Shown here: positions 28,846 to 63,802 of the stretch, in pieces
How the letters are laid out: each line of letters starts with the position of its first letter
How positions within the stretch are numbered: position 1 is the stretch's first letter
NCBI GenBank assembly: GCA_951812955.1
Contig: OX638340.1
Location: forward strand, 1,024,001 to 1,088,000
Reading direction: 5' to 3'
DNA from: an uncultured Gemmatimonadota bacterium
GTDB taxonomy: Bacteria; JAAXHH01
DNA length: 64,000 bases
Notes under the pieces: generated by a model
Seen by the model: the letters and a program-made list of their open reading frames with translations, nothing else
Told to the model about the DNA's origin: nothing
Databases searched by the model: none
Program-made: the position numbers and the translations under genes

Positions 28846-29090
28846 AAACCGCACCGGGTGACAGGGCTTCTACTGTCCAGTCAACATGCACCGAACGACG
28901 GAAATCCCGCGCGTATCTGCGCCGCCGCATTCCCCGCTACACCTGTTCGGGCCAAATCCTGCTTGTCGCGTTAATGCCTTGTAGTTATCATACTTACAGT
29001 GTGGAACACTATAGCGTTTCTTGACCCCTGCGGCCCTTCGATACCCGGACGAATTCACCGGCGCCGAGGAGGATCACGGAAGGACTGGAT

Positions 29091-30167
29091 TTGCATACCT
29101 CCGAAACGATCGCAACCCCCATGGCCGACGCAGATACCGTACACCGTACCGGGCACGCTCCGGGTGGCCTACCCCCCTTCCCGGAAGGCTGGTACCTGGT
29201 AACCACGCGCGAAACCCTGTTGCGGGAAAAACTGATCGAGAAGATGTGGATGGGGGAGAACATCGTCGCATGGTGTGACGAGGAAGGCCGTATCTGCGTG
29301 GCCGACGCGGTTTGTCCGCACCTGGGTTCCGACCTGGGACCGCAGGTCGGCGGCAAGATTCACGGTGGCCGCCTGGTCTGTCCGTTCCACGGGTTCGAGT
29401 TCGATGCGACGGGTCAATGCGTCGCGACGCCCAACGCCCCGGCGCCGAAAGCCGCGAAACTGACCGTGTATGAAACCCGTGAGATCTCCGGCCTGGTCTT
29501 CGCGTGGTACGGAATCGACGGCCGTCCCGCGCACTGGCACCTGCCGGACGATCCTCCGACCGGTAACGAGTGGGGCGAACTGGGATTCAGAACCCTGCGT
29601 TTTCGCAGCCATCCACAGGAAACGGCGGAGAACTCCGTGGATATCGGACACCTGCGCTACGTACACGGCTATGACAATGTGGACCCGGTCGGCCCGGTGA
29701 CGGTGGACGGAGCCTACCTGAGGAGCTGTTTCAACTTCAAGCGCGTCCGCAGCATTATGGGCTTGAAGGACCTCACCTATGAAGTATCGGCCGTCGCCCA
29801 TATCCACGGTCTGGGATACTCCTATGTCGAAGTCCACGAAAAAACGATCGATATGCACTTGAGACTGTGGGTACTGCCCACGCCGATCGATGGCAGCCTG
29901 ATCGATCTCGTACTGGCGGGCCAATTGCAGGGAATCCGCAGACCCCGGCGTTTCATCTCGGGCCTGGGGTTCCTCCCCATGGCGTTGCGCAACCGCTTGA
30001 TGAAGCAAATCATGCTTTCACAGCAAAAACGGGACGTACTGCAGGACGTGGTGATCTGGGAACGAAAGCAGTTTCGCACGCCGCCCCGGCTGTGCAAGGC
30101 CGATGGGCCCATTGGCCTTTACCGGCGCTATTGCCTGCAGTTCTATCCTGAACAACCGAAAGCCTGA
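29091..30167 (+). CDS. Rieske [2Fe-2S] non-haem iron oxygenase (KshA / cholesterol-7-desaturase / SdmA-like class)
   Basis: The Rieske motif is CPHLGSDLG...CPFHGFEF (CxH...CxxH), followed by a catalytic-domain-sized C-terminus. The TTG at 29091 is preceded by GGAAGGA. An alternative ATG lies at 29121. Confidence 0.8.
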   Translation: MHTSETIATPMADADTVHRTGHAPGGLPPFPEGWYLVTTRETLLREKLIEKMWMGENIVAWCDEEGRICVADAVCPHLGSDLGPQVGGKIHGGRLVCPFHGFEFDATGQCVATPNAPAPKAAKLTVYETREISGLVFAWYGIDGRPAHWHLPDDPPTGNEWGELGFRTLRFRSHPQETAENSVDIGHLRYVHGYDNVDPVGPVTVDGAYLRSCFNFKRVRSIMGLKDLTYEVSAVAHIHGLGYSYVEVHEKTIDMHLRLWVLPTPIDGSLIDLVLAGQLQGIRRPRRFISGLGFLPMALRNRLMKQIMLSQQKRDVLQDVVIWERKQFRTPPRLCKADGPIGLYRRYCLQFYPEQPKA

Positions 30168-30255
30168 CCAATGCGACCCTTATCGGAGACAGGTAGAAGG
30201 TGGTCCGGTCCTGGAGGAGACCGCTCAAGCCTGCTGATATCTGCCGCTCTATAAG

Positions 30256-31050
30256 CTATCCGCCGTCCTCCAGCTCAGCCAGAGTCTCCAGCACCCCCTG
30301 CTGGATGAACTCCTCGTAGGCGTCCCGTGTCGGTAGTTCGGCCGCCTTCGACAGCATTTTCGTGGCCCGCGCCCGGCCGTCCTCGCGATCAAGATATGGA
30401 AGCCTGAGCGCATATTCAAACAGCACGACCTTCGAGTCCGGAGCTAGCTCCAGAGCCCGCTCGTAATGGATGACGGCGTTTTTCCGATTCCCCTTGTACA
30501 AGAACCGTGCAACGCGCCCGGCACGTGCGATGTCGGCGTGCCAGCCCCCTAAGGCCATATGCGCCTCTGCGAAGTCGGGGGAGATGGTGAGCGCGGTCTC
30601 GAGCAAATCGCGTGCCCTGCCCGCCAGACCTCGGCGAAATGCAGTTAGTTTACCGATACTCTGTGCATATCGGCCAACAGCGTGCGCGGATTGGAAATAT
30701 GCTTCGGAATTGGTCGAATCGATGCGCACTGCTTCTTCCCCGTACTCTATCGCGCGTTCCAAAATACCGTTCCGGTCCTCCTCAGTCGCCACATGGTGGC
30801 CGTACACCGCGAGCGATTGCGCCGCAAGGGCGTAGCCTTCGGATGTACCGACGGCTGACGCGAGATCCGCCGCCTCGAGAAAACGGCCTTCCTCGAAATC
30901 GGTCCTTGCTTCATCGATCGACTGCGCGTTCGCGCCAGCCGGGTCGGCCAGGCTGGCCGCAATAATCACGAATCCCGCAACTGCCACGAAACGGACAACT
31001 GCCGCGAATCCCGCAACGACTGCGAAACGGTAAAACTGGGTAAGGGTCAT
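30256..31050 (-). CDS. secreted/periplasmic TPR (Sel1/TPR-like) repeat protein
   Basis: 264 aa. A hydrophobic N-terminus ends ...PAGANA|Q, followed by helical repeat segments (...AEAHMALGGWHADIA..., ...AVIHYERALELAPDS...). Confidence 0.6.
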   Translation of the reverse strand: MTLTQFYRFAVVAGFAAVVRFVAVAGFVIIAASLADPAGANAQSIDEARTDFEEGRFLEAADLASAVGTSEGYALAAQSLAVYGHHVATEEDRNGILERAIEYGEEAVRIDSTNSEAYFQSAHAVGRYAQSIGKLTAFRRGLAGRARDLLETALTISPDFAEAHMALGGWHADIARAGRVARFLYKGNRKNAVIHYERALELAPDSKVVLFEYALRLPYLDREDGRARATKMLSKAAELPTRDAYEEFIQQGVLETLAELEDGG

Positions 31051-31208
31051 CTGATATCCCCAGTTCTATTCAGCGGACGGGTACTCGCATCTCGGCTCGA
31101 CGCTTTAGTGTCTTTCAGCGATCAGTCATGCGAATCCACACCATATGGACAAACGCGGTGCTGCCCGACGGCATCGGCTATGGACCGATTCGACTAGGTC
31201 AACGGGGT

Positions 31209-32252
31209 CTAAAGAGGTTTACGAGCCAGGAAACAGTACAGCGGCGTGAAGATACCCGACCTGCCGCCCTCGACATAAGCGTCAGCAGTTCGATCCAGGA
31301 GTCGGACCACTTCCGAATACCCCTTCGGAATCAGACTTAGCGCTTCGGCCATCTTCGATCCTGCGATCACGGCCTTGCGACCCCAAGGGAGCCTGTTCAG
31401 TGCGTTCCCCAAAGTCCCATGCCGACTCTCCATTGGCCGATACCAAGGCGTGGAGGGTTCATTCCGGACGTCTCGGTCCATCCCTTCGATGACGTGGAAT
31501 CCCGCCGCTTCAAGCCCGTGATTCACTTCCCTGAACGTCGCAATGTCGTTCAGCGCAATGCCGCGCATGAGGTCCTGCTCAATGGCCCGGTGCCGGTTGT
31601 CTTTCGGATCGAATTTCTCGGTCAGACACATTTCCTGACCCCAAAACAGGGCTCCTGGTTTGAGTACGCGGAAGATCTCCGCGAAAGCGCGTTCCTTGTC
31701 TGGCGCGTGGCACGTTGACTCGATGGCATAGGCTCGGTCAAACGTCTCGTCCTCAATGCCGCCCATATCCATGAAGCTACACGTCTCGTAATCGACCATG
31801 TGGCCGAGTCCCGCTTCAGCGTTCAACCGCTTTGCCTTATCCAATTGGAGTTCGTTGATGTTGATTCCGACAACCCGGACGCCGGCCTCCCGGACGACGC
31901 GACGCATCGGACCGCCGATTCCACAACCAACGTCGGCCACCGTCATACCCTGCTCCAACTCCAGCTTCGAGATCATCAACCGCTGATGCCGGATTATGGA
32001 TTCCTCCAGGCTTTCATCGGGCTTTAGTGGCGCGAAGTGGAGGGATTCGCTCCAACCCCACACCATTAACCCGCTGCAAAGATCATAGTACTCTTTCACT
32101 GTTTCTGTGTGGTCGTACTCATACGCGCCATCGGCCCCCGGGACCGCCCGGGCTGCCCGGGCGGTCCAGCCTTCAAGGCGCTGCGCGCGACTCTTGACGT
32201 CCGATCCCCGGCTCGCATCTTTCAGTTCTCTGGATAGTTTGCCCATCGCCAT
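31209..32252 (-). CDS. sterol C-24 methyltransferase (ERG6/SMT family, with Sterol_MT_C-type C-terminus)
   Basis: The protein is collinear with my recollection of yeast ERG6. YYDLCSGLMVWGWSESLHF corresponds to YYNVVTDFYEYGWGSSFHF, DVGCGIGGP to DVGCGVGGP, AIESTCHAP to AIEATCHAP, FRVLKPG to YKVLKPG, and C-terminal IFTPLYCFLARKP to LFTPMMLFVARKP. Confidence 0.85.
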   Translation of the reverse strand: MAMGKLSRELKDASRGSDVKSRAQRLEGWTARAARAVPGADGAYEYDHTETVKEYYDLCSGLMVWGWSESLHFAPLKPDESLEESIIRHQRLMISKLELEQGMTVADVGCGIGGPMRRVVREAGVRVVGININELQLDKAKRLNAEAGLGHMVDYETCSFMDMGGIEDETFDRAYAIESTCHAPDKERAFAEIFRVLKPGALFWGQEMCLTEKFDPKDNRHRAIEQDLMRGIALNDIATFREVNHGLEAAGFHVIEGMDRDVRNEPSTPWYRPMESRHGTLGNALNRLPWGRKAVIAGSKMAEALSLIPKGYSEVVRLLDRTADAYVEGGRSGIFTPLYCFLARKPL

Positions 32253-32288
32253 TTCGTGGTATTCCCCTGGTTTTTCGTCTACAAGGCT

Positions 32289-34316
32289 TCAGACTTGCAG
32301 TTCGTGTCTTTGCTCGGAGATGACGAACTGCAGCTTCTTGGTCGGTTTCATAGACGGAAACGGATTGAACCGCAGCTTATAGTTTGCAGGCGACACATCG
32401 ATCTTGAAGTAGTGCGCCAGCATCAGCACGTTGACAGCCAATTGCAGTTCCATCCAACGGGTGCCGAGACACATGTGCGTGCCCAGCCCGTACGGAGCGT
32501 ACCCGGGGCTGCGATGCTCATTGCGCGACGGCAAGTAGCGGTCGATGTCGAAGGAGTGCGGGTCGGGGAAGATGTCACTCATGTAATGCGAGGCGGTCGG
32601 CGCGATGTGGATCCGTTCCCTCATGGGCAGTTCGTATCCCTCAAACACACACGTATTCATCACGTGTCGAACAGACATGGGAACGATCGGGTACATGCGC
32701 ATACACTCCATGAGGAAGCGGTGCGTGACGTCAATCGCGGATGGAGTGAAGGCCTCGATGTCCGGAACGCCGTTCCCGAATACGTCATCGGCTTCATTTC
32801 GGATTTTCTCGTAGAGTGCAGGCTGCGACGCCATGGCATAGACTACCAGACTGAACGTGTCACCAAGGTACACGCTGGCGATCAACGCCGCAGAAAAGGC
32901 AAACCGCAGGTTGGCCTCCGGGAGGAATTGCGGGTCGCTCGCGTGCAGGCTAAGGTAATCGTCCACCAGGTCCCGCGGTTTTCCGGCCCGTTGGGCGGGG
33001 GTGTGGCCCTCCTCGACTCTTTTCATCAGTGTATCAAGGGATTTCGCCCGGCGTTTCATGCCCGGGGTGTTCAGCGTGAACTCGGGCAGCATCCTGGCGA
33101 TATGCACGCTGAGCGCCCGTTCCTTGTACTGCATCAGATCGTCCATCAGGTCCTGCGTGTCGATGCCGATAAACAGGGGCGAGAGTTGGGCGTTTATCAT
33201 CTGCCGGCACATGGACGTAGCAGAATAGGAATCGCCGACATTCAAGCTTGCCATGTATTTCCAGGCATGATGGTAGAGCTTGTCCAGCTGCCCCGCAAGT
33301 CTCCCGCGTGAATACGCTGGAGACAAAGACTTGCGCAGGCGGAAATGGTCGGCGCCGTCCAGGGAAGGCAAGAGGCCGGAAGCGCCGTAGACTTTCTCGA
33401 AGTCTCTGAAATAGTCCTTGGCACTCAGGTACATGCGCCCGTGCTTATGCACCCAGCGGTTTGCCTCGGGTCCGACCAGGAAGACCATGGGCCGGGTGAA
33501 AGGAGGGCGGATCTCAAACACCGGACCGTAGTCCTGCGCAAGGTCCGCAAAGAGCGCGTGGAGGTTGCCGTCTCGAACATGCGGTTGCATCATCAGCTTG
33601 CGTAACGGTACCCTCGGAATCTTCTTTGTAAAACCGGGACGTCGAAGCGTCGGGCCGGCGAGTTTGTGGGAGACTGCTTCGGCGATGGACCGGCCGATCA
33701 CGTCCATCTTGCAGATCAACTCGATGCGTTGCTCCGTCTCGTCATCGAGTTGGAACATGAATCGAAACACATCGCACGTATTGACGAGGCAAATTACGAT
33801 AACGTCTCTCGGGTCGGGGATCTCGTTCATGAAGATCGCCCGGCTGATCCGCGTTCTGATGAACTGACTTGCAGTACTCGAATCGACATCGTTGTTCAAT
33901 TCCATCTTCCAGTCAGTACGGGCCAGCGTCCAGAACTCGCCATCGTGGTGTTCCAGGATCTTCATTTCTACCAGGCGATCCAGAACCGAATCTATAATGG
34001 TCTCCGCTCGGGGGGCCAGCCGTTCGATCCAGTACTGTGTATTGTGCTGATTTGGCTCATTTACGATTTCTTCCAGAATGAAATCGATGGTGGAATTGCC
34101 CGTTGGTGTCTGGTCGAGGACGAACAGAGACCCCGGGTCCGTGTCGATGCGAGATCTGATTGAAAGCTCCGCAAGTGCGGCACCGATTACGGCGCAGTTC
34201 AAATCCCAGCCAGGCACCTGGTGGAAGTAGCCAGTCTCCTCATTGAGGAGCATCAGGATGAGTTCCTGGGTCAAAGTAAGTGATTGGGGCTTCACGTCCT
34301 TTGCAGTATCAGCCAT
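32289..34316 (-). CDS. GPP34 (GOLPH3/Vps74-like) domain fused to cytochrome P450
   Basis: The N-terminal ~200 aa follow the GPP34 pattern (LTQELILMLLNEETGYF...WDLNCAVIGAALAELSIRSRI...PDPRDVIVICL). The C-terminal part has P450 ExxR (ECMRMYP) and haem loop YGLGTHMCLG. The start is taken at the ATG at 34316, which overlaps the RND stop (TAATG); the ORF extends to 34406. Confidence 0.8.
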   Translation of the reverse strand: MADTAKDVKPQSLTLTQELILMLLNEETGYFHQVPGWDLNCAVIGAALAELSIRSRIDTDPGSLFVLDQTPTGNSTIDFILEEIVNEPNQHNTQYWIERLAPRAETIIDSVLDRLVEMKILEHHDGEFWTLARTDWKMELNNDVDSSTASQFIRTRISRAIFMNEIPDPRDVIVICLVNTCDVFRFMFQLDDETEQRIELICKMDVIGRSIAEAVSHKLAGPTLRRPGFTKKIPRVPLRKLMMQPHVRDGNLHALFADLAQDYGPVFEIRPPFTRPMVFLVGPEANRWVHKHGRMYLSAKDYFRDFEKVYGASGLLPSLDGADHFRLRKSLSPAYSRGRLAGQLDKLYHHAWKYMASLNVGDSYSATSMCRQMINAQLSPLFIGIDTQDLMDDLMQYKERALSVHIARMLPEFTLNTPGMKRRAKSLDTLMKRVEEGHTPAQRAGKPRDLVDDYLSLHASDPQFLPEANLRFAFSAALIASVYLGDTFSLVVYAMASQPALYEKIRNEADDVFGNGVPDIEAFTPSAIDVTHRFLMECMRMYPIVPMSVRHVMNTCVFEGYELPMRERIHIAPTASHYMSDIFPDPHSFDIDRYLPSRNEHRSPGYAPYGLGTHMCLGTRWMELQLAVNVLMLAHYFKIDVSPANYKLRFNPFPSMKPTKKLQFVISEQRHELQV

Positions 34317-37300
34317 TAGTGGCCTCCCTTCATCAGACGCAGATGAATGGTAGAAAGAGCGGGAACGACCATCATGAGTATGGCCGTGACGACGAGGATA
34401 CCGCAACCAAGCGATGCGGCAAAGGGAACCAGGAACTGAGCATGAATAGCGCGTTCCAGAATCAAGGGGGTGAAGCCGAGAAACGTAGTCAGAGAAGTAA
34501 GCATAATCGGACGAAAACGTCCCTTTGCGCCCTCTATGATCGCAGTTCGCGCCGGAGCGCCTTCCCTGAGTTTCTGATCGATGAAAACGATCATGACCAG
34601 TGAATCGTTCACAACCACGCCGCTCAGGCCGAATATACCCATGAAGGAGATTGCGCTCAGGGCTACTCCAAGGGCCCAGTGACCAAGGATCACTCCGATG
34701 AACCCGAACGGGATCACCGCCATGATGATGAACGGTTTGGTATAGGATCGTAAGGGGATGGCGAGCAGCACGAAGATCATGATCAGAGCGATCGCAAATC
34801 CGCGATACAGTGCATCCAGGGAATCGAGTTGTTGTTGTTGCTCACCTCCGAACGTGTAGGTCAGGTCCGGGTACACGGCGGTCAATTCCGCGAGGATTGA
34901 ATCCGCCAGGATGCTATTGGCCTGGTCACCGGAGATCACCGCGGCATCCACGTCCGCAGTGACCGTGACGACACGCTGACCATCCTTCCGCCGAATGGCC
35001 GGCGGCGACACGCCCGTGTTCAGCGCGGCCACACTGACGATCGGGACCTCGGCACCGGCCGGCGTACGGATCAGGTACCTTTCGATATCGGTGATGGAAC
35101 TTCGTTCATCGGCGGGCAGGCGCACGTAGACCCGAACCTCTTCACGGCCGCGCTGCACCCGGACGGCATCCGCACCGAAAAACGCGGCGCGCGTCTGTCC
35201 GGCCAACGCTTCCAGCGTGAGACCCAAAGTCCGCGCTTCCGGCCGGAGTTCAAGCTGTATTTCCGGGATACCCGGGGTGTGATCCGAACGGACATCGTAG
35301 ACGCCTGTCACTCCACGGAGACCATCGACCACCGAGTCCGCAATCCGGGCGAGTCGCACCGGATCCGGATGCGACAGCACGGCCTCGACCGGGTTGCCCA
35401 GGTCGAAGACCTCTCCGCTGAAGGTGACACCGCGCACGTAGGGCAGCACACCCACTTCCTCTCGCCATGCCTGCACAACCTCTCCGGTAGTGATCTGCCT
35501 TTGCTCCGCGCTCAGGAGTTTGAACTCGATGGTTGCAATGTTGGCCTGAGGATTAAGGGTGGGGGCTGGATTAAGCCCACCCTCGAGCCTCGAGCCCTGT
35601 CCGACGGTCACCATTACGCCGGTCAGCAGTGGTGGCGCATCCTCGGGGCGGCCGCGCGAAAGCCGATCGACGACCCGGTAACCTGCGGCCTCCAGTTCCT
35701 GTGCCACCTCGTATGTCCTTGGAGCGGTCGTCCCGTCGGGCATCTCCAGGATGACCGTCGCAAAATCCCCCTCCACGTCAGCAGCCAACGTGGTAGGTAC
35801 GATCCCCGCCGGTACCAGCGAGATACTAAGTACGAGTATTCCAACGGCCCCCCCCAGCGTGACCGCGGGCTGATCCGTCGCGAACCGTAACGCTCGGTCC
35901 AGGGGACCCTGCACGAACCGGTTCAGCGACTCGTTCACACGTCCCTGGATCCGCGCGAAGAACCGGTCGAAAGCACTTGTCGGCGTCCATTCCGGACCGT
36001 GCAAACGGGACAGGTGGTTGGGTAGTACCAGCAGTGATTCGATCAGGGAAACAAACAGTATGGCGATAAGGATGATCGGCAGTGCCCGCCATACGTCACC
36101 GACGCCTCCGGGTATGAACAGCAGCGGGACGAAAGCCACCACCGAAGTAAGGACCGCGAAGGTCAACGGCACTTTTATCCGTCGTACTCCGCGTATCGCA
36201 GCCACGACACCGGGCGTTCCCCGACTGCGTTCATATTGAATGTGCTCGGCTACGACGATGGCGTCATCGACGACAATCCCTATGGCGAGGACGAAAGAGA
36301 ACAGGCTGATGGTGTTAATAGCTACGTCGAGTACCATCATGACGGCCAATGTGCCTATACCCGAAACGGCGAGGCCGACGGCGACCCACAATGCAAGCCG
36401 GATTTCCAGAAACAGGCTGAGTGCGATCAACACCAGCAACAGACCCAGGATGCCATTCTTGACGAGAATATCGGCACGTTCCTCATAGGCTTGGGATTCG
36501 TCATTCCACATGGTGATGTGCACACCGTTCGGCAGAGCCGGGATCACCTCGTTTGCCATATGTTCCCGGACAGTCGTGGCGACGTCCATCACTTGTTCGC
36601 CGTTGGCTCGGTACACCTCGACGAATACAGCGGGATGGTTCTGATGCCGAACAATCAGGTCGGATTCCTGAAAACCATCGCGAACCCTGGCGATATCGCC
36701 AAGGCGCAAGGCAGTGCCGTCACTTCTGCTAAGCAGGATGATCTCTTCGAAATCCTGCTGGTCGTAGTTCTGGCCGAGGGTACGAACCCGCACCTGGGAT
36801 TCCCGGGTATCGATACTGCCGGCAGAAAGGTTCAGGGAACTGCGACGAATGGTATTGGCGACATCGGCGAGTGTCAGTCCAAGGGCTCTCAGCCGATGAA
36901 GCGGCACCTCGATGGAGATCTCGTATTTCCGAACACCACTGACCTCGACCTGGGACACGGACGGAAGCGCCGTGAGTCCATCCTCGATCTGATATGCCGT
37001 TTCCTTCAGCGAGCGTTCGGACACGTCGCCGTAGACGATGAACCGTATCATGCTCATACGGTTGTCCATCTCACGGAAACTGGGACGATCGGCACCGGCC
37101 GGGAAAGACTGGATGCGATTGACCGCGGACTCGATATCGTTGAGCGCCTGGACCATGTCCGTACCGAAATCCATTTGAATCCGCACGGATGCTATACCCG
37201 GGGCCGCTACAGACTTGACCGCCTTCACGTCATCCAACCCGCTGACCTGGTCCTCGATCTTGACGACGATCGACTCCTCGACCTCCTCCGGCGTGGCGCC

Positions 37301-51146: not shown

Positions 51147-54103
51147 ATGCCAGTCAATAGCGAGCCATCCTTCAACGAAGCACTGGCACGTGTCCTCCGG
51201 TCGAAGAATCCTCGCTGGCGGGACACGCTTGCCGCAGAACAACACCAAACGCTAAAGGGTGGCGGTAGACCTGACGTAATACTGCGGAATCCGCGCGGTT
51301 CGGTGGTTGTCGTCGAGACCGAGTACGTTCCAGCCCGTACGGTTGAGACGGAAGCCAATGATCGCATCGGTCGAGAACTCAGTGATTCAGGCGTGGCTAT
51401 TGAGCAGTGTGTCGCCGTCCGAGTACCTGATTACTTAAAAACGGTCCCTCAGCACGATCTCGACACCCGTACGGCGGTGGCGACCTACGAATTCTGCCTC
51501 TTCAGCGAAACGGACAATGCCGAGGATCCTTTGCGCTGGCCTGCGGATGGTTGGATCACAGGCGCGATCAACGATCTCGCGCTCCTGATCGAAACCGCGT
51601 CGATTTCAGAACGGATCGTCGCCCAAAGCCTGGACATTCTGGAAGATGGGATAAGCGAAACTGCCGTCCAGTTGCGCGAAGCCACTAAGGACAGACCAAA
51701 CGTAAGTTCCCGCATTGCGAAAACGCTCCTGCAAGAAGACGGCGTGCAGACTTCCCGAATGGCTATGGCCATCATCGCAAATGCGCTCACTTTTCAGAGC
51801 ATGCTCGCCGGGGTCTTTCACGTAAAGACGATCGACGATCTACGCCGGAACGGAGTCATCCCAAAGTCGGCGGTCCTGCGAGAATGGAAGCGCATCCTTC
51901 GAATAAACTACTGGCCCATATTCCACATTGCGAGCGAGGTCCTCAGTCCGATTCCGGATGGCATCTCCGCTCGTTTGCTGGAAAAGTTGTCGAATGTGTC
52001 GAGCGAGTTAGAAGCACACGGCATCACCCAGTCACACGACATCTATGGGCGAATGTTCCAGCGGATGATCAGCGACAGGAAGTTCCTCGCGACGTTTTAC
52101 ACCTTGCCCACGTCGGCGACGTTGCTCGCGGAGTTGGCAGTTGAGATGATAGACGTTGAGTGGAGCGATCCTGATGAGGTGACGAAGCTTCGCACCGCAG
52201 ACTTTGCATGCGGTACGGGTACGTTGATCACGGCGCTCTATCAGGCAATGCTGGGTCGCCATCGACGTGCTGGCGGCAACGATGAGGCGATTCACAAGAG
52301 CATGATGGAGACTTCTATCTTCGCGGCCGATATCATGCCGGCGGCTACCCATCTGACCACTTCGATGTTGTCCAGTACCCATCCAACAACCCCTTTCGAG
52401 CAGACCCGTGTCCATCTCTTGCCCTACGGCCAGCAGGAGGACGACGTAGGGGCCATTACCTTCGCGCTGGGCGCGCTTGACCTGATACGAGCGCAGCACG
52501 GTACCGGACTATTCGAGAACACGGGGATCATGGTACAAAGCGGTACAGAAAGCACGCAGGACGTCATTAGAGAAGCAGGTAGATTGACGGACACATTCCT
52601 GCTTCAGCACCACTCGATGGACGTGGTTATCATGAATCCGCCCTTTACTCGCCCGACCAACCACGAAGCGACCGATGTCCCTGTACCTTCTTTTGCCGGC
52701 ATGGGAAATAATGAGGCAGAGCAGGCAGCCATGTCCCAACTTCTGAGAGATATCCGGAGGGAAATTGACGATCCCGCCGGTCACGGAAACGCCGGACTCG
52801 CGTCCAATTTCCTTGACCTCGCTGACGCCAAGATCCGTCCCGGCGGCTTGCTTGCGCTCGTGATGCCACTCAGCCTTCTTCAAGGCAACGCGTGGAAGGC
52901 AAGCCGCGACCTACTGCAGGCAAAGTATGAGAGCGCAGTGGTCGTCAGCCTAGCATCCGTAGTTCGAGACAGTGCGGTATCATTCTCGGCCGATACCGGA
53001 ATGGGAGAGGTGTTGTTGATCGCACGACGCAGAACCGTACCAGACAGTCCAGAGCACACGAAAACTGAAGAGACAGTCGATACGGTTACCTATTCGCGCT
53101 GCGAAAGCCGCCGGCATCGGGAACCGAGGCAACAGGGATCGCATCGGCGATTCGTGACGCGATCCAGCAGGGCACCTCGCGAATCGCCATTGGAAACGCC
53201 CGTTACGGTATTCTCACACGAGGTACCTGGGACGAGGGCCACTGCGCGTCAGTGATAAATGCTGAACTCGTAGATACCGTGAGAAACCTGCAAGATAGCA
53301 AACTGAAATTGCCTCGAATGGCTCAAGCGTATTCGGTTCCAACAACGATGCTGGGCGAGTTGGGAAAACGGGGCTTGGTTCACCGAGATATCAATGGGAT
53401 TGAAAGAAAATCCGTTCAAGATCAACAGGAATCAAAACGGTATTTTCGCGGTCCGTTCGATATCGTACATACGACAGACGAACCGACCTTTCCGGTTCTC
53501 TGGGGACATGCCACTGACCGCGAACGTTGCATCGTGGTTCAGCCTGACAGTGCAGGAATAATTCGCGAAGACTGTGAAGACGGCGCGCACGATGCCTGGA
53601 GAACGGCGACCAGGCTCCACTTCAGTCTCGACTTTCGCCTCAACTCACAATGCCTCGCCGCGTGCCTTACTCCAACCGAAACACTGGGAGGAAGAGCATG
53701 GCCCAATTTCCAGATGGACAGCCGTAGGAATGAGACTGTTACCGCGCTGTGGGCTAACACAACGCTGGGACTGATACTGTTCTGGTGGGCAGGTACCGTT
53801 CAGCAAGCAGGACGAGCCAACCTTACCATCAGCAGGTTGCCCGAACTGCTCACGCTGGATGCGCGTACGCTGACAGACGCGCAGCACAAGCAGGTAGATC
53901 TGATCTTCAAAGAGTTTGAGAAACGCCCACTGTTGCCAGGAAACGAGGCGTATCGGGACGCGAGCCGACAGGCGCTGGATGAGGCCGTGCTCATTGGCCT
54001 CATTGGACTGCCTGAATCAATTCTCGATCCTCTCGCGGTGCTTCGCCGGCAGTGGTGCAGTGAGCCGACCGTGCATGGTGGGAAAAGTACGCGACCCAAT
54101 TGA
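51147..54103 (+). pseudogene. MmeI-like (Type IIG/IIL) fused restriction-modification enzyme, interrupted by a 1-nt frameshift
   Basis: The N-terminus has a PD-(D/E)xK-like motif (GGRPDVIL...VVVETEY). The gamma-class N6-adenine MTase motifs are FYTLPTSATLLAEL, DFACGTGTL (motif I) and MNPPF (motif IV). The frame changes near 53069-53100. The frame of the downstream ORF is open from 53069 and reads protein-like (...YLFALRKPPASGTEATGIASAIRDAIQQG...), whereas the upstream frame turns into an Arg-rich tail. Confidence 0.7.
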
Positions 54104-54173
54104 ATAGTTTTACGATAGTACTCAAACCCCAAAATGCAGTTGGCTTCCATATAGCACCGCATTCTAATTGATC

Positions 54174-56870
54174 ATGAATTGCGATGGTAATATGAGTTCA
54201 TCTAAAATCAGACCTGCTGAAAAACCGCTCGCAATGTTTGTAAGTAGTGTGATGGATGATGACCTTCAACCATATCGAGATACAGCAGAATCCCTGATCA
54301 ATTCCAGGTTCCTCACGTCTTGGGTTTTCGAATACACCCCCGCGAGTTCTGAATCATTAGACGAGTCCTATTTACGACACGTAAGAAATGCGGATTTCGT
54401 AATATGGATAGGTGGTGAAAAAACATCGAATCCTGTGAAGCGGGAGGTAAATGAAGCAATCATTCATCAAAAACGCCTGTTGGTTTTTCTACTACCTGCT
54501 AACACTAGAAATGCTGGTACTGAGGAGATAATTGAGACTATCAGTTCAAACAAAGGTCCAAAGTGGTGTAAACTGGACGATCGAAATATCGAAACATTTG
54601 AGGAAGCACTTGACTATACGATACAGGACGAATTTGCTCGGGCGATTAGAAATGATCATAGTTGGCAACGAATCGGCACATTGGAACGACTAAACCGCGA
54701 CTCTCGAGCAAGGTCTTTGTCCAGATTCATGGCATCCGGCCTTTCACGAAATCAAGCAAATCGTATGTTTAAGAAGGTTTCCGATCTTCCTGTCTTAGCA
54801 TCGCCTGAGTTACCGAAAGAAGGCGAGGTGAGTTTACTTGTTGGGACGCTGGGATCCGGAAAGTCATTCACGGCTGAAAAAGTGTATCAGGAGGTCCTTG
54901 ATCAATCTAGATCTCCGTTGGCTCCTGTACCTTTCTACATAACTGCACGTCATGTTAGAAATGGTTTGGATTCTTACATCAAACAACTCAATCCTGAGTT
55001 AGGTGACGTCACTTCAATTGGCGCCTCCATAGTAATTGATCAAATTGACGATCTTCCCAATTCCGATTCACGCCGACTGTATGAAGAAGCGCTTGCTCTC
55101 ACGTTATCGTGGCCCAAGACGAGGGTTCTACTCGTTAGTCGTCCTCAGCCGTGGAGCCGAGACTGTGTTGCTACTACACATGTAAGGGAGATGTCGTTAG
55201 AGGAAGTTGAAACTGTGGTAGAACTCGTGTCGGATTCAATTCGTTCCCAGCTTCTTTGGATAATGCCTCATGCTTTACGTCGATCCGTTCAACGCCCTCT
55301 TTTCGCGATCCTGCTTGCCAAGTATCTCGAATCTAATGAAGATCAAGTTCCAATTTCTATGGCTAAGTTACTCGACCGGATGGTACGCGAAGCTGTCGAG
55401 AACGCTGGCACTGAAAGCAATCAGTCGATAGAAAAGATGCTGAGGTCTTTGGCTGTAAAACTGACAGACGGCCATGCCGATGTGAAACTGACGGATCTTA
55501 CTATACCAATATCCGATAGAAACAGACTCTTAAATACACATTTGGTATATGAGGAATCTGAACGTCTGGATTTTGCCTTGCCTATCTTGCGGCAATGGTT
55601 CGCATTTGATGCCATATGTCAAAAAGAAGTAGATATCGTAGAATTATCACTTGATGCGGGACGACTCGATAAGTGGGAAGATGTATTAACCACTGCAGTT
55701 GAACTCGCCACTAATCAGATTGATGACATAGTAGAACCCATTGTCGTCAATAACCCATCTGTAGCGTCAGTCATTCTCGACAGTGCATTCGGCCATCTGT
55801 GGTATAGTAGTCCTGATTCTGATCTATCTGCCGACACGTTCGGGAAACATATTCGAAGGGCAATGACGGCATTTGCCAAAGGCATAGGCCCTCTAAGTGG
55901 GCTAATTGCTCCTGTGAATGAACAAGGAGAAGTAAAACCGCTCGGTGTAGCCAAATTGAACGAAGGCTATTACAAGACGAGTTGGTATGAGGGATCATCT
56001 GACATAGAAAACGTAGTCGGGGTTTCTTCGGAAGATGATTTGGCGATTTCTGATTGGCCCCACATTTTCTCGCGAACAAGGATAGACTCACCTGCGTGGG
56101 CTTGGCTGGATGTCAAGCACCAGTTGAGGGAGCGTTTGGAAAAACTACTAAATTGTTACGGTTTTCCTATTCGAAATACCTTCTTCTTGCATGAATCAGC
56201 TTGGGAATTAGCATCCTCGGCATTGAACCGACATTCGCAGTTAGAACCCCAAGTCTCTAGTGATGAAATGAATGACGTGCTCCGATGGATCCAGAAAAGA
56301 CCTTCGACCATGCTTCGACAATTTAGTCCAGAGACCGTAGTGTTAGCAGCAACGTACCTACAAGGACTCATTGACAAAAACAGGCCACTCCGAGCACCGT
56401 GGCCTGGGCCTGATCAGGCTTTGTCTAGTAGTAAGTGGGTGTGGGAACTGTATTCTCCTGAGAGGCTTCGCAAAAGGCTTCAACGCGTCTTAAGTGCATC
56501 TTTAGAAATGTATCAGGAAATCGTATCCAAATGGTTTATCACTATGTCCAACAGATTCGAGTTATTTTCACTAAATCCAGTACGTCTTGTTGGTTACTTA
56601 TACGTGCCTGAAGGAAAAACTTCCGACTTGAGAAGTGAACCATCCGTAACGTTCTATTTTGAACCGATTCGGGGACATGTGTCGTCAAGTGTGGATATCT
56701 TTCTCGGTTCAATTCCGTTAGCAGAATTAGAGTCAACTGTACTTAAAGTCAATCCAAATGCTATCACAATATGTACGTCTATGGTTGTCAGTATTTTCGG
56801 CAGACGTCCAGCAACTGATCAGGCTTACGATTGGCTGAAAGACGGTTTACGTTCCGCCAAGTGGGACTAA
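54174..56870 (+). CDS. DUF4062-like N-terminal domain / NACHT-type STAND P-loop NTPase / uncharacterised C-terminal domain (Avs/bNACHT-like)
   Basis: The N-terminus ...LAMFVSSVMDDDLQPYRDTAESLI... follows the DUF4062 pattern. The NTPase motifs are Walker A LLVGTLGSGKSF, Walker B SIVIDQIDDL and a NACHT-like RVLLVSRPQP. About 560 aa of C-terminus have no motif I recognise. The start is ambiguous (TTG 54168, ATG 54174 or ATG 54192). Confidence 0.7.
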   Translation: MNCDGNMSSSKIRPAEKPLAMFVSSVMDDDLQPYRDTAESLINSRFLTSWVFEYTPASSESLDESYLRHVRNADFVIWIGGEKTSNPVKREVNEAIIHQKRLLVFLLPANTRNAGTEEIIETISSNKGPKWCKLDDRNIETFEEALDYTIQDEFARAIRNDHSWQRIGTLERLNRDSRARSLSRFMASGLSRNQANRMFKKVSDLPVLASPELPKEGEVSLLVGTLGSGKSFTAEKVYQEVLDQSRSPLAPVPFYITARHVRNGLDSYIKQLNPELGDVTSIGASIVIDQIDDLPNSDSRRLYEEALALTLSWPKTRVLLVSRPQPWSRDCVATTHVREMSLEEVETVVELVSDSIRSQLLWIMPHALRRSVQRPLFAILLAKYLESNEDQVPISMAKLLDRMVREAVENAGTESNQSIEKMLRSLAVKLTDGHADVKLTDLTIPISDRNRLLNTHLVYEESERLDFALPILRQWFAFDAICQKEVDIVELSLDAGRLDKWEDVLTTAVELATNQIDDIVEPIVVNNPSVASVILDSAFGHLWYSSPDSDLSADTFGKHIRRAMTAFAKGIGPLSGLIAPVNEQGEVKPLGVAKLNEGYYKTSWYEGSSDIENVVGVSSEDDLAISDWPHIFSRTRIDSPAWAWLDVKHQLRERLEKLLNCYGFPIRNTFFLHESAWELASSALNRHSQLEPQVSSDEMNDVLRWIQKRPSTMLRQFSPETVVLAATYLQGLIDKNRPLRAPWPGPDQALSSSKWVWELYSPERLRKRLQRVLSASLEMYQEIVSKWFITMSNRFELFSLNPVRLVGYLYVPEGKTSDLRSEPSVTFYFEPIRGHVSSSVDIFLGSIPLAELESTVLKVNPNAITICTSMVVSIFGRRPATDQAYDWLKDGLRSAKWD

Positions 56871-56898
56871 TTCATTCAGTTTCAGATACCTTTGATTC

Positions 56899-57900
56899 AT
56901 GGCTTACGAATCCCGTATGACCGAATTCAGGAAAGCGAGAGACCGCGGTGCCAAATACCTGCTTCGCCAGGTACACGCGGACGGCAGTTTCGGCAATCCC
57001 GTTCTCGGCGTAACCGAATACTACAAGGCGCCGGCCGCGTTTCTCGTGTGTGGACTGTCCCATGCCGCGAATCGACAGCTAAACTGGATCAGGCACAACG
57101 GCTTCCTGCCGAACGGTGATTTCGGTCCAAGACCCGCCAGCGAACGCAACAGTTACTATTACACCTACCACAATGCCTGGGTGATCAAGGCGGCCCACCG
57201 CATGGGCGCTTTCGACCTCGCCCGGCGCGGCATGGACTTCCTCCTCGGATTCCGCGACCCGGCCAGCGGCGGTTTCTACTCCCACCCGATGGCGCGCGAC
57301 GATACGACCGAGCAGGACCTGTGGGTCGTGAGCGGCATAGGCTGGTGCGCCGTTTACACCGGAAAGCTGGACGTGGCCAGGGGCATCGGCCGCTGGATGC
57401 GTCGCCTGATGGAGGATCAGCCCGATTACCCCAGTGCGTTGTGGACGGTCTACAGCCGCGACCGCGGACTGATCACCGAGGTGCTGGACGGCGACGATTT
57501 CAGGTACGTGCTGACTCGGGACGAGTCGCGCGACCAATCCTTCTACCACCCAGGCATCGCGGCTGGCTTCCTGTGCCGCCTCTACATGGCCACGGGCGAG
57601 GAGGAATGGCTGGATCTCGCGAGGGAGTACATGCGGTTCTGCGAAAACGTGGGGGACTATCACTTCAAGTTGCTGCGCGCGGGCAAGGTCGGTTGGGCTG
57701 GCGCGATGCTCTACACGCTCACGGGGGAAGTAAAGTACCGCGACATGGCGGTCAGGGTAGGAAACAACCTGGTCCAGGCCCAGTTGGCAAACGGCGCATG
57801 GGCCTGGCCGGAGATGGGGCTGACCGGACCGCACAACGACATCACGGCCGAAATGGTCGTATGGCTCGACGAGATCCACCAGGCGGTTGGCGACGGCTAG
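56899..57900 (+). CDS. prenyltransferase/squalene-oxidase-repeat (alpha/alpha toroid) protein
   Basis: 333 aa with QW-like or prenyltransferase-like repeats: GAKYLLRQVHADGSFG, ASGGFYSHP...DDTTEQDLWVVSGI and VGNNLVQAQLANGAWAW. Confidence 0.5.
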   Translation: MAYESRMTEFRKARDRGAKYLLRQVHADGSFGNPVLGVTEYYKAPAAFLVCGLSHAANRQLNWIRHNGFLPNGDFGPRPASERNSYYYTYHNAWVIKAAHRMGAFDLARRGMDFLLGFRDPASGGFYSHPMARDDTTEQDLWVVSGIGWCAVYTGKLDVARGIGRWMRRLMEDQPDYPSALWTVYSRDRGLITEVLDGDDFRYVLTRDESRDQSFYHPGIAAGFLCRLYMATGEEEWLDLAREYMRFCENVGDYHFKLLRAGKVGWAGAMLYTLTGEVKYRDMAVRVGNNLVQAQLANGAWAWPEMGLTGPHNDITAEMVVWLDEIHQAVGDG

Positions 57901-62369: not shown

Positions 62370-63218
62370 ATGGCGTCGCCTTACGCACATCTGTTGACCG
62401 ATAACGAAAAGTGGCATTTCGACCTTCAGGGATACCTTCACCTGCGCGGCGTGATCGCGCCGGAGCGCCTGGGCCGTATCCTGGAGGTGGTCGATCACTG
62501 GCTGTCCGCCGACGAATACGAGATCCCCGCGCCGGTTTTAAGGCATCGACAGGAGCCCTACAAGACACACCTGGACCACATCCAGTACGGGCACAGGCTG
62601 TTCCAGGAACTGAACGCCGATCCGGAGATCATCCGCGTGGTCGCGGGACTGACCATGGGCATGCCACGGCTGTTTCACTGCAACTTCACGAAAATGGACC
62701 GCGCCGCGCCGGGCGACGCGGACGTTCAGGCCTATCACAGGGATGACAGCGGCTTCAAGTTCCCCCCGGGCTTCAGGAATCCCCACAACGATTACCAGGC
62801 GGCGGGCGGGGAGATCTACTGCAGCCACCTGGCCACGTGGATCGCGCTGGCGGATGTACCGGCGGGCACCGGGTTCAGCCTGGTGCCGGGCAGCCACAAG
62901 TCGGCCTTCGGCACGCCGGACGCACTGAAAGTCGGCGACTATCTGCCCGTATCGATCACCGTGCCCATGGACGCGGGCGACGTCCTCATTTTCTCGACCC
63001 ACTTGTTGCACGATGCCGCGGCCTGGACCCAGGACTATCCCAGGATGAACATCTTCCAGCGCTATCAGTTCAGCGCCTATTTCAACGAAAGCGGCAAAGG
63101 CGGACTGCCCATCGACGAATACCGGGATCAGATCACCGAAGAGGAGTACGAACTGGAATCGCTCAGCAAAGACGAAAAGGCCGCCGTAACCCGGATGCGG
63201 CGTCACTTCGGACTGTAG
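62370..63218 (+). CDS. phytanoyl-CoA dioxygenase (PhyH) family dioxygenase
   Basis: 282 aa with the N-terminal ...FDLQGYLHLRGVI..., YHRDDSGF (HxD) and a distal ...STHLLHDAAAW... His. Confidence 0.7.
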   Translation: MASPYAHLLTDNEKWHFDLQGYLHLRGVIAPERLGRILEVVDHWLSADEYEIPAPVLRHRQEPYKTHLDHIQYGHRLFQELNADPEIIRVVAGLTMGMPRLFHCNFTKMDRAAPGDADVQAYHRDDSGFKFPPGFRNPHNDYQAAGGEIYCSHLATWIALADVPAGTGFSLVPGSHKSAFGTPDALKVGDYLPVSITVPMDAGDVLIFSTHLLHDAAAWTQDYPRMNIFQRYQFSAYFNESGKGGLPIDEYRDQITEEEYELESLSKDEKAAVTRMRRHFGL

Positions 63219-63238
63219 TCAACCCACAGGAGACGGCC

Positions 63239-63802
63239 ATGGCGTGGATACGCACCATTGACGAATCGGAAGCGGAAGGTCAACTGGAAAGAATATACCA
63301 AGGATCGATGCGATCCTGGGGAGGCGTGGACAACATCATCAAGGTCCACAGCCTGAACGTGCAGGCGCTGAGAGCGCTTATGACCTTCTACAAGGGCCTC
63401 ATGCACGGGGACTGCGACCTCACGCTGGGGCAGCGGGAGATGATCGCGACGACCGTCTCGGTTCTGAACGAGTGCGAGTACTGAATCCGCCATCATGGGG
63501 AGGGGCTCCTCAGAGAGATCGACGACAGGGAACTGGTGGATGCGATCAAGAGAGACTACCGCGAAGCGAACCTGGACGACGGCGACCGCGCCATGCTGGA
63601 CTACGTCCGGAAACTCACCCTGGCGCCCGCTTCCACTTCCGAATCGGATATCGAGCAGTTGAGGCAGGCGGGTTTCGGAGACAAGGCGATCCTGGAGATC
63701 AACCAGATCACGGGTTTCTTCGCCTGGTGCAACCGGACGGTGGACGGCCTGGGCGTGGAACTTGAGGCATTCTGGGACGAACCGAACGCGACGAATGTTT
63801 GA
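63239..63802 (+). CDS. AhpD/carboxymuconolactone-decarboxylase-like peroxidase-related protein, putative selenoprotein (in-frame UGA at 63482-63484)
   Basis: ORF fragments 63239-63481 and 63536-63802 are in the same frame and are separated only by one TGA. The joined product reads ...VSVLNECEY[U]IRHHGEG.... This is the family motif C-x-x-C-x-x-x-H with the second Cys replaced by UGA. The C-terminal half continues the family pattern (...DRAMLDYVRKLT...GFGDKAILEINQITGFFAWCNR...). Confidence 0.65.
63496..63512 (+). promoter_or_regulatory. candidate bacterial SECIS upper stem-loop
   Basis: 17-nt hairpin UGGGGAG-GGG-CUCCUCA with a 7-bp stem (one G-U pair) and a G-rich triloop. It starts 11 nt after the UGA. 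Folded by eye only. Confidence 0.3.

What the first reader, a model, noticed from the sequence alone, without database searches (positions are those of the whole stretch)
63239..63802. Probable selenocysteine (CxxU) AhpD-like protein split by an in-frame UGA
Two ORF fragments are in the same frame and are separated by a single TGA (63482-63484). Read through, the motif is NECEY-U-IRHHG. This is the AhpD/CMD 'peroxidase-related' active-site pattern C-x-x-C-x-x-x-H, with the resolving or nucleophilic Cys position occupied by UGA and the His at +4 conserved. Both halves look like one family domain (N-terminal MAWIRTIDESEAEGQLERIY..., C-terminal ...LDYVRKLT...AGFGDKAILEINQITGFFAWCNR...). A 17-nt hairpin (63496-63512) begins 11 nt after the UGA. 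That matches the geometry I recall for the minimal E. coli fdhF SECIS, although it lacks the bulged U. AhpD-like proteins are a known selenoprotein family in marine metagenomes, so this is a mis-annotation trap rather than a new family. It does imply that the organism uses Sec.
Basis: partly seen in the sequence, partly recalled or inferred. Interest (0 to 1): 0.65.

Follow-up and report, generated by a model that had tools for sequence, protein, structure and literature searches.

The report
Selenocysteine AhpD-like redox protein gene
This is one intact gene for a small redox enzyme whose internal "stop" codon almost certainly encodes selenocysteine; the family is already a known selenoprotein family that gene callers routinely cut in two, so the case is real but ordinary.

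Summary
ATG 63239 to TGA 63800-63802 is one 187-codon frame with a single in-frame TGA at 63482-63484. Read through, it gives NECEY-U-IRHHG. With U written as C, the protein matches NCBIfam TIGR01926 (peroxidase-related enzyme) end to end, at 138 bits against a cutoff of 81.8. The TGA column is the second Cys of the CxxC motif in 62 Cys homologues.

All 41 related genes found in species-representative genomes, from several named phyla and 49-98% identical, carry TGA at this column. Both halves are under purifying selection (median dN/dS 0.07 and 0.15). The 17-nt hairpin starts 11 nt after the UGA and has a G-rich loop. Its folding energy is unremarkable, but its codons show a sharp, local synonymous-site constraint, and some homologues have a second, slipped-register hairpin made by four linked synonymous changes.

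TGA is otherwise the commonest stop codon in the window. "AhpD-like protein, TIGR01926, CxxU" is a published selenoprotein family.

Not shown: selA, selB, selD or tRNA-Sec. They are absent from the window, and the rest of the genome could not be searched.

The parts
63228..63232 (+). Shine-Dalgarno-like AGGAG, 6 nt upstream of the ATG
   Evidence: Read directly from the sequence.
63239..63802 (+). Complete AhpD-like (TIGR01926) selenoprotein gene: 187 codons including Sec, plus the terminal TGA
   Evidence: Translation. TIGR01926 138.4 bits against a cutoff of 81.8, residues 2-173. Pfam CMD E = 1.5e-10. PDB 2pfx E = 8e-29.
63437..63439 (+). Glu67 codon, the proton-relay Glu, 12 residues before Cys79
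   Evidence: Invariant in 63 homologues. Same spacing as E118-C130 in Mtb AhpD and E36-C48 in PA0269 (PMC3141380).
63473..63475 (+). Cys79 codon (TGC), first residue of the C-x-x-U motif; presumed resolving Cys
   Evidence: Invariant, 86 of 86 sequences.
63482..63484 (+). UGA codon read as selenocysteine (U82), at the position of the second Cys of CxxC
   Evidence: TGA at this column in all 41 related genomic loci. The column is Cys in 62 homologues.
63485..63495 (+). 11-nt spacer between the UGA and the hairpin (codons I83, R84, H85 and part of H86)
   Evidence: The spacing equals that of the E. coli minimal SECIS (PMC8659212).
63494..63496 (+). His86 codon, the His at +4 from Sec (Mtb His137 equivalent); its third base opens the hairpin
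   Evidence: Invariant.
63496..63512 (+). Putative SECIS hairpin: 7-bp stem (codons G87-E88 pair with L90-L91) and apical loop GGG (G89)
   Evidence: Fold. Rare geometry, 2 of 1764 TGA sites. Synonymous-site constraint confined to codons 87-91. Alternative slipped register in 7 homologues.
63800..63802 (+). True stop codon, also TGA
   Evidence: TGA ends 22 of 43 genes in the window.

Best explanation
Positions 63239-63802 are one gene for a 187-residue AhpD-like (TIGR01926/COG2128, CMD-fold) thiol/selenol oxidoreductase. Codon 82 (UGA, 63482-63484) is read as selenocysteine.

Inferred mechanism of decoding: the ribosome reaches the UGA, and the hairpin at 63496-63512 lies 11 nt downstream and presents a G-rich apical loop. 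A SelB-type elongation factor carrying Sec-tRNA(Sec) binds this hairpin and delivers Sec instead of termination.

Inferred mechanism of catalysis: the product carries the relay E67 ... C79-E-Y81-U82 ... H86. By analogy with M. tuberculosis AhpD, U82 is the exposed nucleophile. It attacks an oxidised partner (a peroxide, or a peroxiredoxin sulfenate or disulfide). C79 then resolves the adduct as an intramolecular selenenylsulfide, and an unidentified reductant regenerates the enzyme.

Shown here: one conserved reading frame across the UGA, the position of the UGA, the conserved hairpin, and family membership. Inferred: actual Sec insertion, the SelB interaction, the substrate and the reductant.

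The organism is a sponge- or coral-associated bacterium. The window is about 95-96% identical in DNA to MAGs that submitters labelled Gemmatimonadetes, and closely related MAGs are labelled Latescibacterota.
For: Family and active site:
- TIGR01926 is matched full length above its cutoff.
- PDB homologues align across the UGA in one chain.
- C79, Y81, H85, H86 and E67 are invariant, and column 82 is Cys in 62 of 85 full-length homologues.
- The five relay residues correspond to those of PA0269 and Mtb AhpD.
- Mtb Cys133, the second Cys, is the reacting residue.

Conservation of the UGA:
- All 41 loci from species-representative genomes have TGA at this column. They are 49-98% identical and are labelled Gemmatimonadota/Latescibacterota, Chloroflexota, Acidimicrobiales, Cellvibrionaceae, Thermoanaerobaculia, Myxococcales and Planctomycetota.
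- Ten independent ENA assemblies show an 81-aa gene plus a 105-aa gene abutting at the TGA.
- Database fragments of 104-107 aa start exactly at the codon after the TGA.

Translation of both halves: median dN/dS against 20 close relatives is 0.07 for the N half and 0.15 for the C half.

RNA element (22 divergent sequences):
- L91 is CTC in 20 of 20.
- L90 is CTC (14) or CTT (7).
- G87 is GGG (14) or GGA (7), never GGC or GGT.
- Every other conserved Leu or Gly column uses 3-6 codons (1.3-2.4 bits).
- Seven homologues carry the linked synonymous set GGA-GAA-CTT-CGN. This rebuilds a 6-7 bp hairpin one register over, with loop GGUC.
- The loop G at position 23 from the UGA is invariant, and position 24 is U in 14 of 22.

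Not a reassigned code: TGA ends 22 of 43 genes in the window, including this one.

Published family.
Against: - No selA, selB or selD homologue (tblastn with the E. coli proteins) and no tRNA was found in the 64-kb window or in any fetched locus.
- The hairpin is not thermodynamically exceptional.
- No Rfam family matches it.
- Classical compensatory covariation is thin because the stem is nearly invariant.
- The hairpin codons also encode a conserved peptide (HHGEGLL), so part of the nucleotide conservation comes from the protein.
- No ahpC-like partner gene is adjacent in the window.
- In B. thailandensis AhpD the first Cys was reported to matter more than the second, so the nucleophile assignment is by analogy only.
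Confidence: 0.88

Rival explanations
1. The gene is a pseudogene, or the TGA is a sequencing error: an AhpD-like gene with TGC/TGT turned into TGA, so only the first 81 residues, or nothing useful, is made.
For: One base separates TGA from TGC/TGT. Gene callers treat the locus as two fragments.
Against: TGA is present in 41 of 41 related genomes from independent assemblies. dN/dS downstream of the TGA is 0.15. Synonymous constraint is confined to the hairpin codons.
Confidence: 0.02
2. Two separate small proteins (81 aa and about 88-105 aa) are made from adjacent genes and assemble into a split AhpD-like enzyme.
For: In many homologues the codon after the TGA is ATG, GTG or TTG, and gene callers start a 105-aa gene there.
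Against: In the window and most of its clade the codon after the TGA is ATC or ATA, which is not a start codon. The first in-frame start is GTG 63536, which would remove the invariant HHGEGLL. No ribosome-binding site precedes it. All Cys homologues and all solved structures are single chains with C-x-x-C on one helix.
Confidence: 0.02
3. UGA is read through without selenium. It could be read as Trp or Gly through a reassigned code, or as Cys/Trp by near-cognate suppression, with the hairpin acting only as a read-through stimulator.
For: Seventeen database entries show W at this column, so some pipelines chose code 4. The Sec machinery has not been demonstrated for this genome.
Against: TGA is the commonest stop codon in the window (22 of 43) and ends this very gene. 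The genome is about 60% G+C. The column aligns to a catalytic Cys, never to a true Trp codon. The one W form checked on DNA is TGA. The family is a recognised Sec family.
Confidence: 0.06
4. The hairpin is not a SECIS. Its conservation only reflects the conserved peptide HHGEGLL, and the true recoding signal lies elsewhere.
For: The MFE is not better than shuffles. HHGEGLL-like peptides also occur in some Cys forms. There is no Rfam match.
Against: Synonymous sites in exactly these codons are frozen, while all other conserved Leu and Gly codons vary. Four synonymous changes co-occur to rebuild the stem in another register. The two Cys-form genes checked have no hairpin at this spot. The geometry is rare, 2 of 1764 TGA sites.
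Confidence: 0.08

Closest known systems
AhpD-like selenoprotein family (TIGR01926 / COG2128; 'AhpD-like 1', CxxU) from the Sargasso Sea and GOS metagenomes
   Same: Same NCBIfam model, matched above its cutoff. Same CxxU motif with Sec at the second Cys. A stem-loop with a G in a small apical loop lies directly after the UGA. There is a large pool of Cys homologues.
   Different: Nothing essential. This copy sits in sponge- or coral-associated MAGs labelled Gemmatimonadetes/Latescibacterota. No paper I found in the held library describes selenoproteins in those bacteria. Public records of relatives are annotated as two fragments.
Mycobacterium tuberculosis AhpD (PDB 1GU9/1KNC) and Pseudomonas aeruginosa PA0269 (2O4D)
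   Same: The relay Glu-x11-Cys-x-(His/Tyr)-Cys-x3-His is conserved as E67, C79, Y81, U82 and H86. Tyr at the middle position matches PA0269. Sec replaces the Cys133-type residue that reacts with AhpC.
   Different: Sequence similarity to Mtb AhpD is too low to detect by phmmer. No ahpC gene is adjacent in the window. Selenium replaces sulfur. The partner and the reductant are unknown.
Solved 'peroxidase-related' proteins 2pfx, 2oyo, 2prr, 3c1l, and AhpD 6k40
   Same: These are the closest solved relatives (E = 8e-29 to 5e-21). They are single chains of about 190 aa that align across the UGA position, with N-x-C-x-Y-C-x-x-H-G at the same place.
   Different: All are Cys forms. Most have no published function.
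E. coli fdhF minimal SECIS
   Same: A 17-nt stem-loop placed 11 nt after the UGA, with G at position 23 in the apical loop. Position 24 is U in 14 of 22 divergent homologues.
   Different: There is no bulged U17. The window's loop is GGG rather than containing GU. The stem is 7 uninterrupted pairs. No lower stem is conserved.

Membership tests
AhpD-like selenoprotein (TIGR01926, CxxU) | Full-length match to TIGR01926 above its curated cutoff | tested here: met
   138.4 bits against 81.8, residues 2-173 of 187, with U written as C.
AhpD-like selenoprotein (TIGR01926, CxxU) | In-frame UGA aligned with the second Cys of CxxC in Cys-containing homologues | tested here: met
   Column 82 is C in 62 of 85 full-length homologues. 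C79 is invariant.
AhpD-like selenoprotein (TIGR01926, CxxU) | UGA conserved among orthologues, with coding conservation on both sides | tested here: met
   41 of 41 loci have TGA. dN/dS is 0.07 for the N half and 0.15 for the C half.
AhpD-like selenoprotein (TIGR01926, CxxU) | Bacterial SECIS-like stem-loop with a G in a small apical loop immediately downstream of the UGA | tested here: met
   The hairpin at 63496-63512 has loop GGG. Synonymous constraint is confined to its codons. Its energy alone is not significant.
AhpD-like selenoprotein (TIGR01926, CxxU) | Sec-insertion machinery (tRNA-Sec, SelA, SelB, SelD) in the same genome | not testable with these tools
   Absent from the 64-kb window and from all fetched loci.
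AhpD-like selenoprotein (TIGR01926, CxxU) | Selenium actually incorporated at residue 82 | not testable with these tools
   Needs 75Se labelling or mass spectrometry.
Canonical AhpD (AhpC-reducing adaptor, M. tuberculosis type) | Proton-relay residues Glu, Cys, His/Tyr, Cys, His with 12-, 2-, 1- and 4-residue spacing | tested here: met
   E67, C79, Y81, U82 and H86 are all invariant.
Canonical AhpD (AhpC-reducing adaptor, M. tuberculosis type) | Genetic linkage to ahpC (peroxiredoxin) | tested here: not met
   The window neighbours are a PhyH dioxygenase upstream and an unassigned gene downstream. A Redoxin/AhpC-TSA gene follows the homologue only in L052. No neighbour was seen to be shared across phyla in a rough ORF clustering.
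Canonical AhpD (AhpC-reducing adaptor, M. tuberculosis type) | Reduces oxidised AhpC in vitro | not testable with these tools
   Biochemical assay required.
E. coli fdhF-type minimal SECIS | 17-nt upper stem-loop 11 nt from the UGA | tested here: met
   Definition taken from PMC8659212.
E. coli fdhF-type minimal SECIS | Bulged U17 and G23-U24 in the apical loop | tested here: not met
   There is no bulge. Loop positions 22-24 are GGG in the window. G23 is invariant, and U24 is present in 14 of 22 divergent homologues.
Carboxymuconolactone decarboxylase (PcaC enzyme) | Membership beyond the shared CMD fold (pca gene context, decarboxylase-type family model) | tested here: not met
   Only the generic Pfam CMD domain is hit (41 bits). 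The best specific model is the peroxidase-related TIGR01926. No pca genes are nearby.

The most novel reading that the evidence does not exclude
The SECIS of this family is built from the codons of the catalytic-helix motif G-E-G-L-L and exists in two mutually exclusive registers. These are GGG GAG GGN CUC CUC with a 3-nt loop, and GGA GAA GGU CUU CUC C with a 4-nt loop. The registers are interconverted by four linked synonymous changes and are spread over several phyla. Point-mutated derivatives (UGA to UUA, AGA or CGA) still carry the hairpin as a 'fossil SECIS'. Together with the gene's presence in sponge-associated MAGs labelled Gemmatimonadetes/Latescibacterota, this would document horizontal spread of a self-contained Sec gene cassette into lineages where I found no published report of Sec use.
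Probability: 0.35. Interest if true: 0.3.

Novelty: new member of a known kind. Interest (0 to 1): 0.2.

Why it matters
The main value is annotation hygiene. This gene and dozens of relatives in public MAGs are split into an 81-aa and a 105-aa "peroxidase" fragment, or are translated with Trp at the Sec position. This hides a selenoenzyme and can push pipelines towards the wrong genetic code.

The finding also flags, indirectly, that sponge- and coral-associated bacteria labelled Gemmatimonadetes/Latescibacterota probably have the selenocysteine-decoding trait and need selenium.

The 42 aligned sequences give a clean natural data set on how a bacterial SECIS coexists with a conserved active-site peptide. 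None of this changes current understanding of Sec biology.

Tried and rejected
- Rfam, at gathering thresholds on the whole window and at E up to 10 on 63440-63620, gave no SECIS or other relevant match.
- MFE z-scores against dinucleotide shuffles and synonymous-codon shuffles for all 42 sequences were mostly non-significant. I dropped MFE as evidence and used per-codon synonymous entropy instead.
- Classical covariation counts for both registers gave a weak signal, because the stem is nearly invariant.
- A scan for other in-frame-TGA genes in the window found none.
- tblastn with E. coli SelA, SelB and SelD against the window and all loci gave no hits. ARAGORN on the window and 43 loci found no tRNA.
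- An exact-sequence look-up of the neighbouring window protein, to find the source contig, returned nothing on record.
- ORF clustering to find conserved neighbours was noisy. It showed synteny only within the close clade.
I judged a model of a homologue unnecessary, given PDB hits at E = 8e-29.
- Literature searches for selenoproteins in sponge Latescibacterota/Gemmatimonadota found nothing specific. No BSepDB supplement is held.
- The reassigned-code (code 4/25) reading was rejected from stop-codon usage.

Full report
**Observation**

- An ATG at 63239 is preceded by AGGAG at 63228-63232.
- It opens a frame that runs to TGA at 63800-63802 and is interrupted once, by TGA at 63482-63484.
- Read through, the product has 187 residues with ...VSVLNECEY-U-IRHHGEGLLRE....
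- The hairpin at 63496-63512 is U GGGGAG / GGG / CUCCUC A: seven pairs (one G-U) and a 3-nt loop. It begins 11 nt after the UGA.
- Among the 1764 TGA trinucleotides on both strands of the window, only two are followed at exactly 11 nt by a stem of at least 7 bp with a G-containing loop of 3-5 nt.
- Among all in-frame TGA junctions in the window, this one has the best coding score on both sides. The next two are only consecutive genes in the same frame.

**What the protein is**

With U written as C, the protein gives these matches.
- Pfam CMD, E = 1.5e-10.
- NCBIfam TIGR01926 "peroxidase-related enzyme", end to end: 138.4 bits against a cutoff of 81.8, residues 2-173.
- The closest solved structures are single chains that align straight across the UGA: 2pfx (E = 8e-29, residues 18-170), AhpD 6k40, 3c1l, 2oyo and 2prr.

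So the two halves are not separate proteins.

Among 85 full-length database homologues the UGA column is distributed as follows.

| Residue at column 82 | Count |
|---|---|
| Cys | 62 |
| Trp | 17 |
| Gly | 3 |
| Arg | 2 |
| Leu | 1 |

- Cys79, His85 and His86 are invariant.
- Glu67 and Tyr81 are also invariant in a 63-sequence alignment.
- The pattern E67-x11-C79-x-Y81-U82-x3-H86 reproduces the proton relay described for M. tuberculosis AhpD (E118, C130, H132, C133, H137) and P. aeruginosa PA0269 (E36, C48, Y50, C51, H55) (PMC3141380).
- Sec occupies the Cys133-type position. In Mtb AhpD this is the exposed residue that forms the mixed disulfide with AhpC Cys61, while Cys130 is partly buried (PMC6626918).
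- The same paper reports that in B. thailandensis AhpD the first Cys matters more. The nucleophile assignment is therefore by analogy.

**Is the UGA real and translated?**

The homologue search returned dozens of 104-107-aa proteins that are 61-75% identical and begin exactly at the codon after the UGA (M/V-[RQ]-HHGEGLL...). It also returned an N-terminal fragment ending ...NHCEY.

Ten independent ENA assemblies of one Acidimicrobiales population show an 81-aa CMD gene and a 105-aa gene abutting at the TGA.

One scan of species-representative genomes gave 41 loci. They were 49-98% identical and were labelled Gemmatimonadetes/Latescibacterota (sponge and coral MAGs), Chloroflexota, Acidimicrobiales, Cellvibrionaceae, Thermoanaerobaculia, Myxococcales and Planctomycetota.
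- All 41 have TGA at the same column, C-x-Y-TGA-[IV]-x-H-H.
- The scan patterns came from the Sec clade. The scan therefore says nothing about the ratio of Sec to Cys forms.

Against 20 close relatives, median dN/dS is 0.07 upstream and 0.15 downstream of the TGA. The part after the "stop" is therefore under protein-level selection.

One "W" form was checked on DNA and is TGA.

TGA ends 22 of 43 genes in the window, including this one. The window is about 60% G+C. This excludes a reassigned code.

In the window the codon after the TGA is ATC. The first in-frame start is GTG 63536, which would delete the invariant HHGEGLL. Independent initiation of the second half is therefore unlikely.

**The RNA element**

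Energy-based tests failed.
- The fold is no better than dinucleotide shuffles.
- It is no better than synonymous-codon shuffles (p = 0.17 for the window and mostly non-significant elsewhere).
- No Rfam family matches.

The informative test was synonymous codon choice at conserved residues in 22 divergent sequences.

| Codon position | Codons used |
|---|---|
| L91 | CTC in 20 of 20 |
| L90 | CTC 14, CTT 7, CTG 1 |
| G87 | GGG 14, GGA 7 (never GGC or GGT, which dominate other Gly columns) |
| E88 | GAG 14, GAA 7 |
| Every other conserved Leu or Gly column | 3-6 different codons (1.3-2.4 bits) |

These four codons form the two arms of the stem, and G89 is the loop.

Seven homologues from several phyla carry the linked set GGA GAA GGT CTT CTC CGN.
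- This set breaks the window's register.
- It forms a 6-7 bp hairpin shifted by one position, with loop GGUC.

In both registers, positions 22-23 from the UGA are GG in the apical loop. Position 24 is U in 14 of 22 sequences.

This parallels the E. coli minimal SECIS, which is 17 nt long, lies 11 nt from the UGA, and has G23 and U24 in the loop (PMC8659212). Here there is no bulged U17.

Controls:
- The two Cys-form genes fetched lack a hairpin at this spot.
- Variants with TTA, AGA or CGA at the Sec column, each one base away from TGA, keep the hairpin. "Remnant SECIS" structures of this kind have been described (PMC1794560).
- A Gly form (GGG) has no hairpin.

**Sec machinery**

The window has no tRNA gene, and neither do 43 related loci. 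tblastn with E. coli SelA, SelB and SelD, fetched, finds nothing in the window or in any fetched locus.

This means little for a 64-kb piece of a genome of roughly 3.9 Mb. This is the one refutation criterion that stays open.

**Context**

The window is 95-96% identical in DNA to JAPOOT010000231 (Gemmatimonadetes bacterium APA_bin_41) and to OY762445.1.

The neighbours are a PhyH dioxygenase upstream (62370-63218) and a gene downstream that gave no family match because it is cut by the window end. No peroxiredoxin is adjacent. In L052 a Redoxin/AhpC-TSA gene follows the homologue. The literature notes Prx-like/AhpD-like pairs in some reads.

A rough neighbour-joining tree puts 54 of the 58 Sec forms, with some of the Arg/Leu variants, in one clade. 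A few Sec forms sit elsewhere.

**Comparison with what is known**

- "AhpD-like protein, CXXU" was reported from the Sargasso Sea in 2005, with 27 sequences (PMC1088965).
- It appears as "AhpD-like (COG2128)" in genome surveys (PMC1794560).
- It was the fourth most abundant selenoprotein family in GOS, with 299 Sec forms against 902 Cys homologues (PMC2398784).
- A 2026 review lists "AhpD-like protein, TIGR01926, CxxU" (PMC13188914).

The gene here meets every sequence-level criterion of that family.

**Verdict**

This is a genuine, intact selenoprotein gene of a known family. It is a mis-annotation trap, not a new system. Interest is low (0.2).

Two things are mildly new. One is the two-register SECIS embedded in the catalytic-helix codons. 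The other is the implied Sec trait in sponge-associated MAGs labelled Gemmatimonadetes/Latescibacterota, for which I found no report in the held literature.

Noticed in passing
window 27466-34406: This may be a sterol-modifying gene cluster. It holds an amine-oxidase-like flavoprotein (27466-28845, +) and a Rieske/KshA_C oxygenase (29091-30167, +) with a weak hit to 4beta-methylsterol monooxygenase SdmA. It also holds a methyltransferase with a Sterol_MT_C domain (31209-32252, -; E = 2.6e-15). A 705-aa ORF (32289-34406, -) joins a GPP34 (Golgi phosphoprotein 3) domain to a cytochrome P450 whose PDB matches include CYP51, at E about 1e-15. Bacterial sterol methyltransferases in sponge symbionts bear on the sponge sterol-biomarker debate (my own knowledge). 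The evidence here is domain-level only.
   Followed up: partly
window 51147-57900: This is a low-G+C island: 45% at 54-56 kb against about 60% elsewhere. It carries a 900-aa ORF (54168-56870) whose only hit is an N-terminal DUF4062. Upstream lie a 702-aa ORF with weak DNA-methyltransferase hits (PADLOC MTase_II, E = 2.5e-8) and a 283-aa ORF with no hits. It may be a horizontally acquired defence or restriction-like module.
   Followed up: partly
L052:1501-2046, L053:99-647, L058:3001-3573, L057:37-585: Some homologues have a sense codon one base away from TGA at the Sec column: TTA (Leu), AGA (Arg) and CGA (Arg). All three keep the downstream hairpin. They could be recent loss-of-Sec mutants with a fossil SECIS, or assembly errors. 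A GGG (Gly) form has no hairpin.
   Followed up: partly
L035, L038, L040, L043, L044, L045, L048 (about 12-40 nt after the TGA): An alternative SECIS register occurs in these loci: GGA GAA GGT CTT CTC CGN, a 6-7 bp stem with loop GGUC. It is made by four linked synonymous changes and is found in Acidimicrobiales, Chloroflexota and a Cellvibrionaceae MAG. This suggests the gene moves horizontally together with its SECIS.
   Followed up: yes
window 3570-4436, 4450-5283, 62370-63218: There are three PhyH-family (phytanoyl-CoA dioxygenase-like) paralogues in 64 kb. One lies directly upstream of the selenoprotein gene. The window also holds several GFO/IDH/MocA oxidoreductases, two enolase-superfamily (MR_MLE) genes and a hydantoinase A/B pair (23672-27390). 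Together these suggest a scavenging heterotroph.
   Followed up: no
public records of relatives, e.g. P0026 (MBT6443481.1), L001-L010:9755-10318: Public annotations split this gene into an 81-aa CMD fragment and a 105-aa 'peroxidase' fragment. Other entries translate the UGA as Trp. The submitters' taxon labels for near-identical relatives also disagree (Gemmatimonadetes versus Candidatus Latescibacterota).
   Followed up: partly
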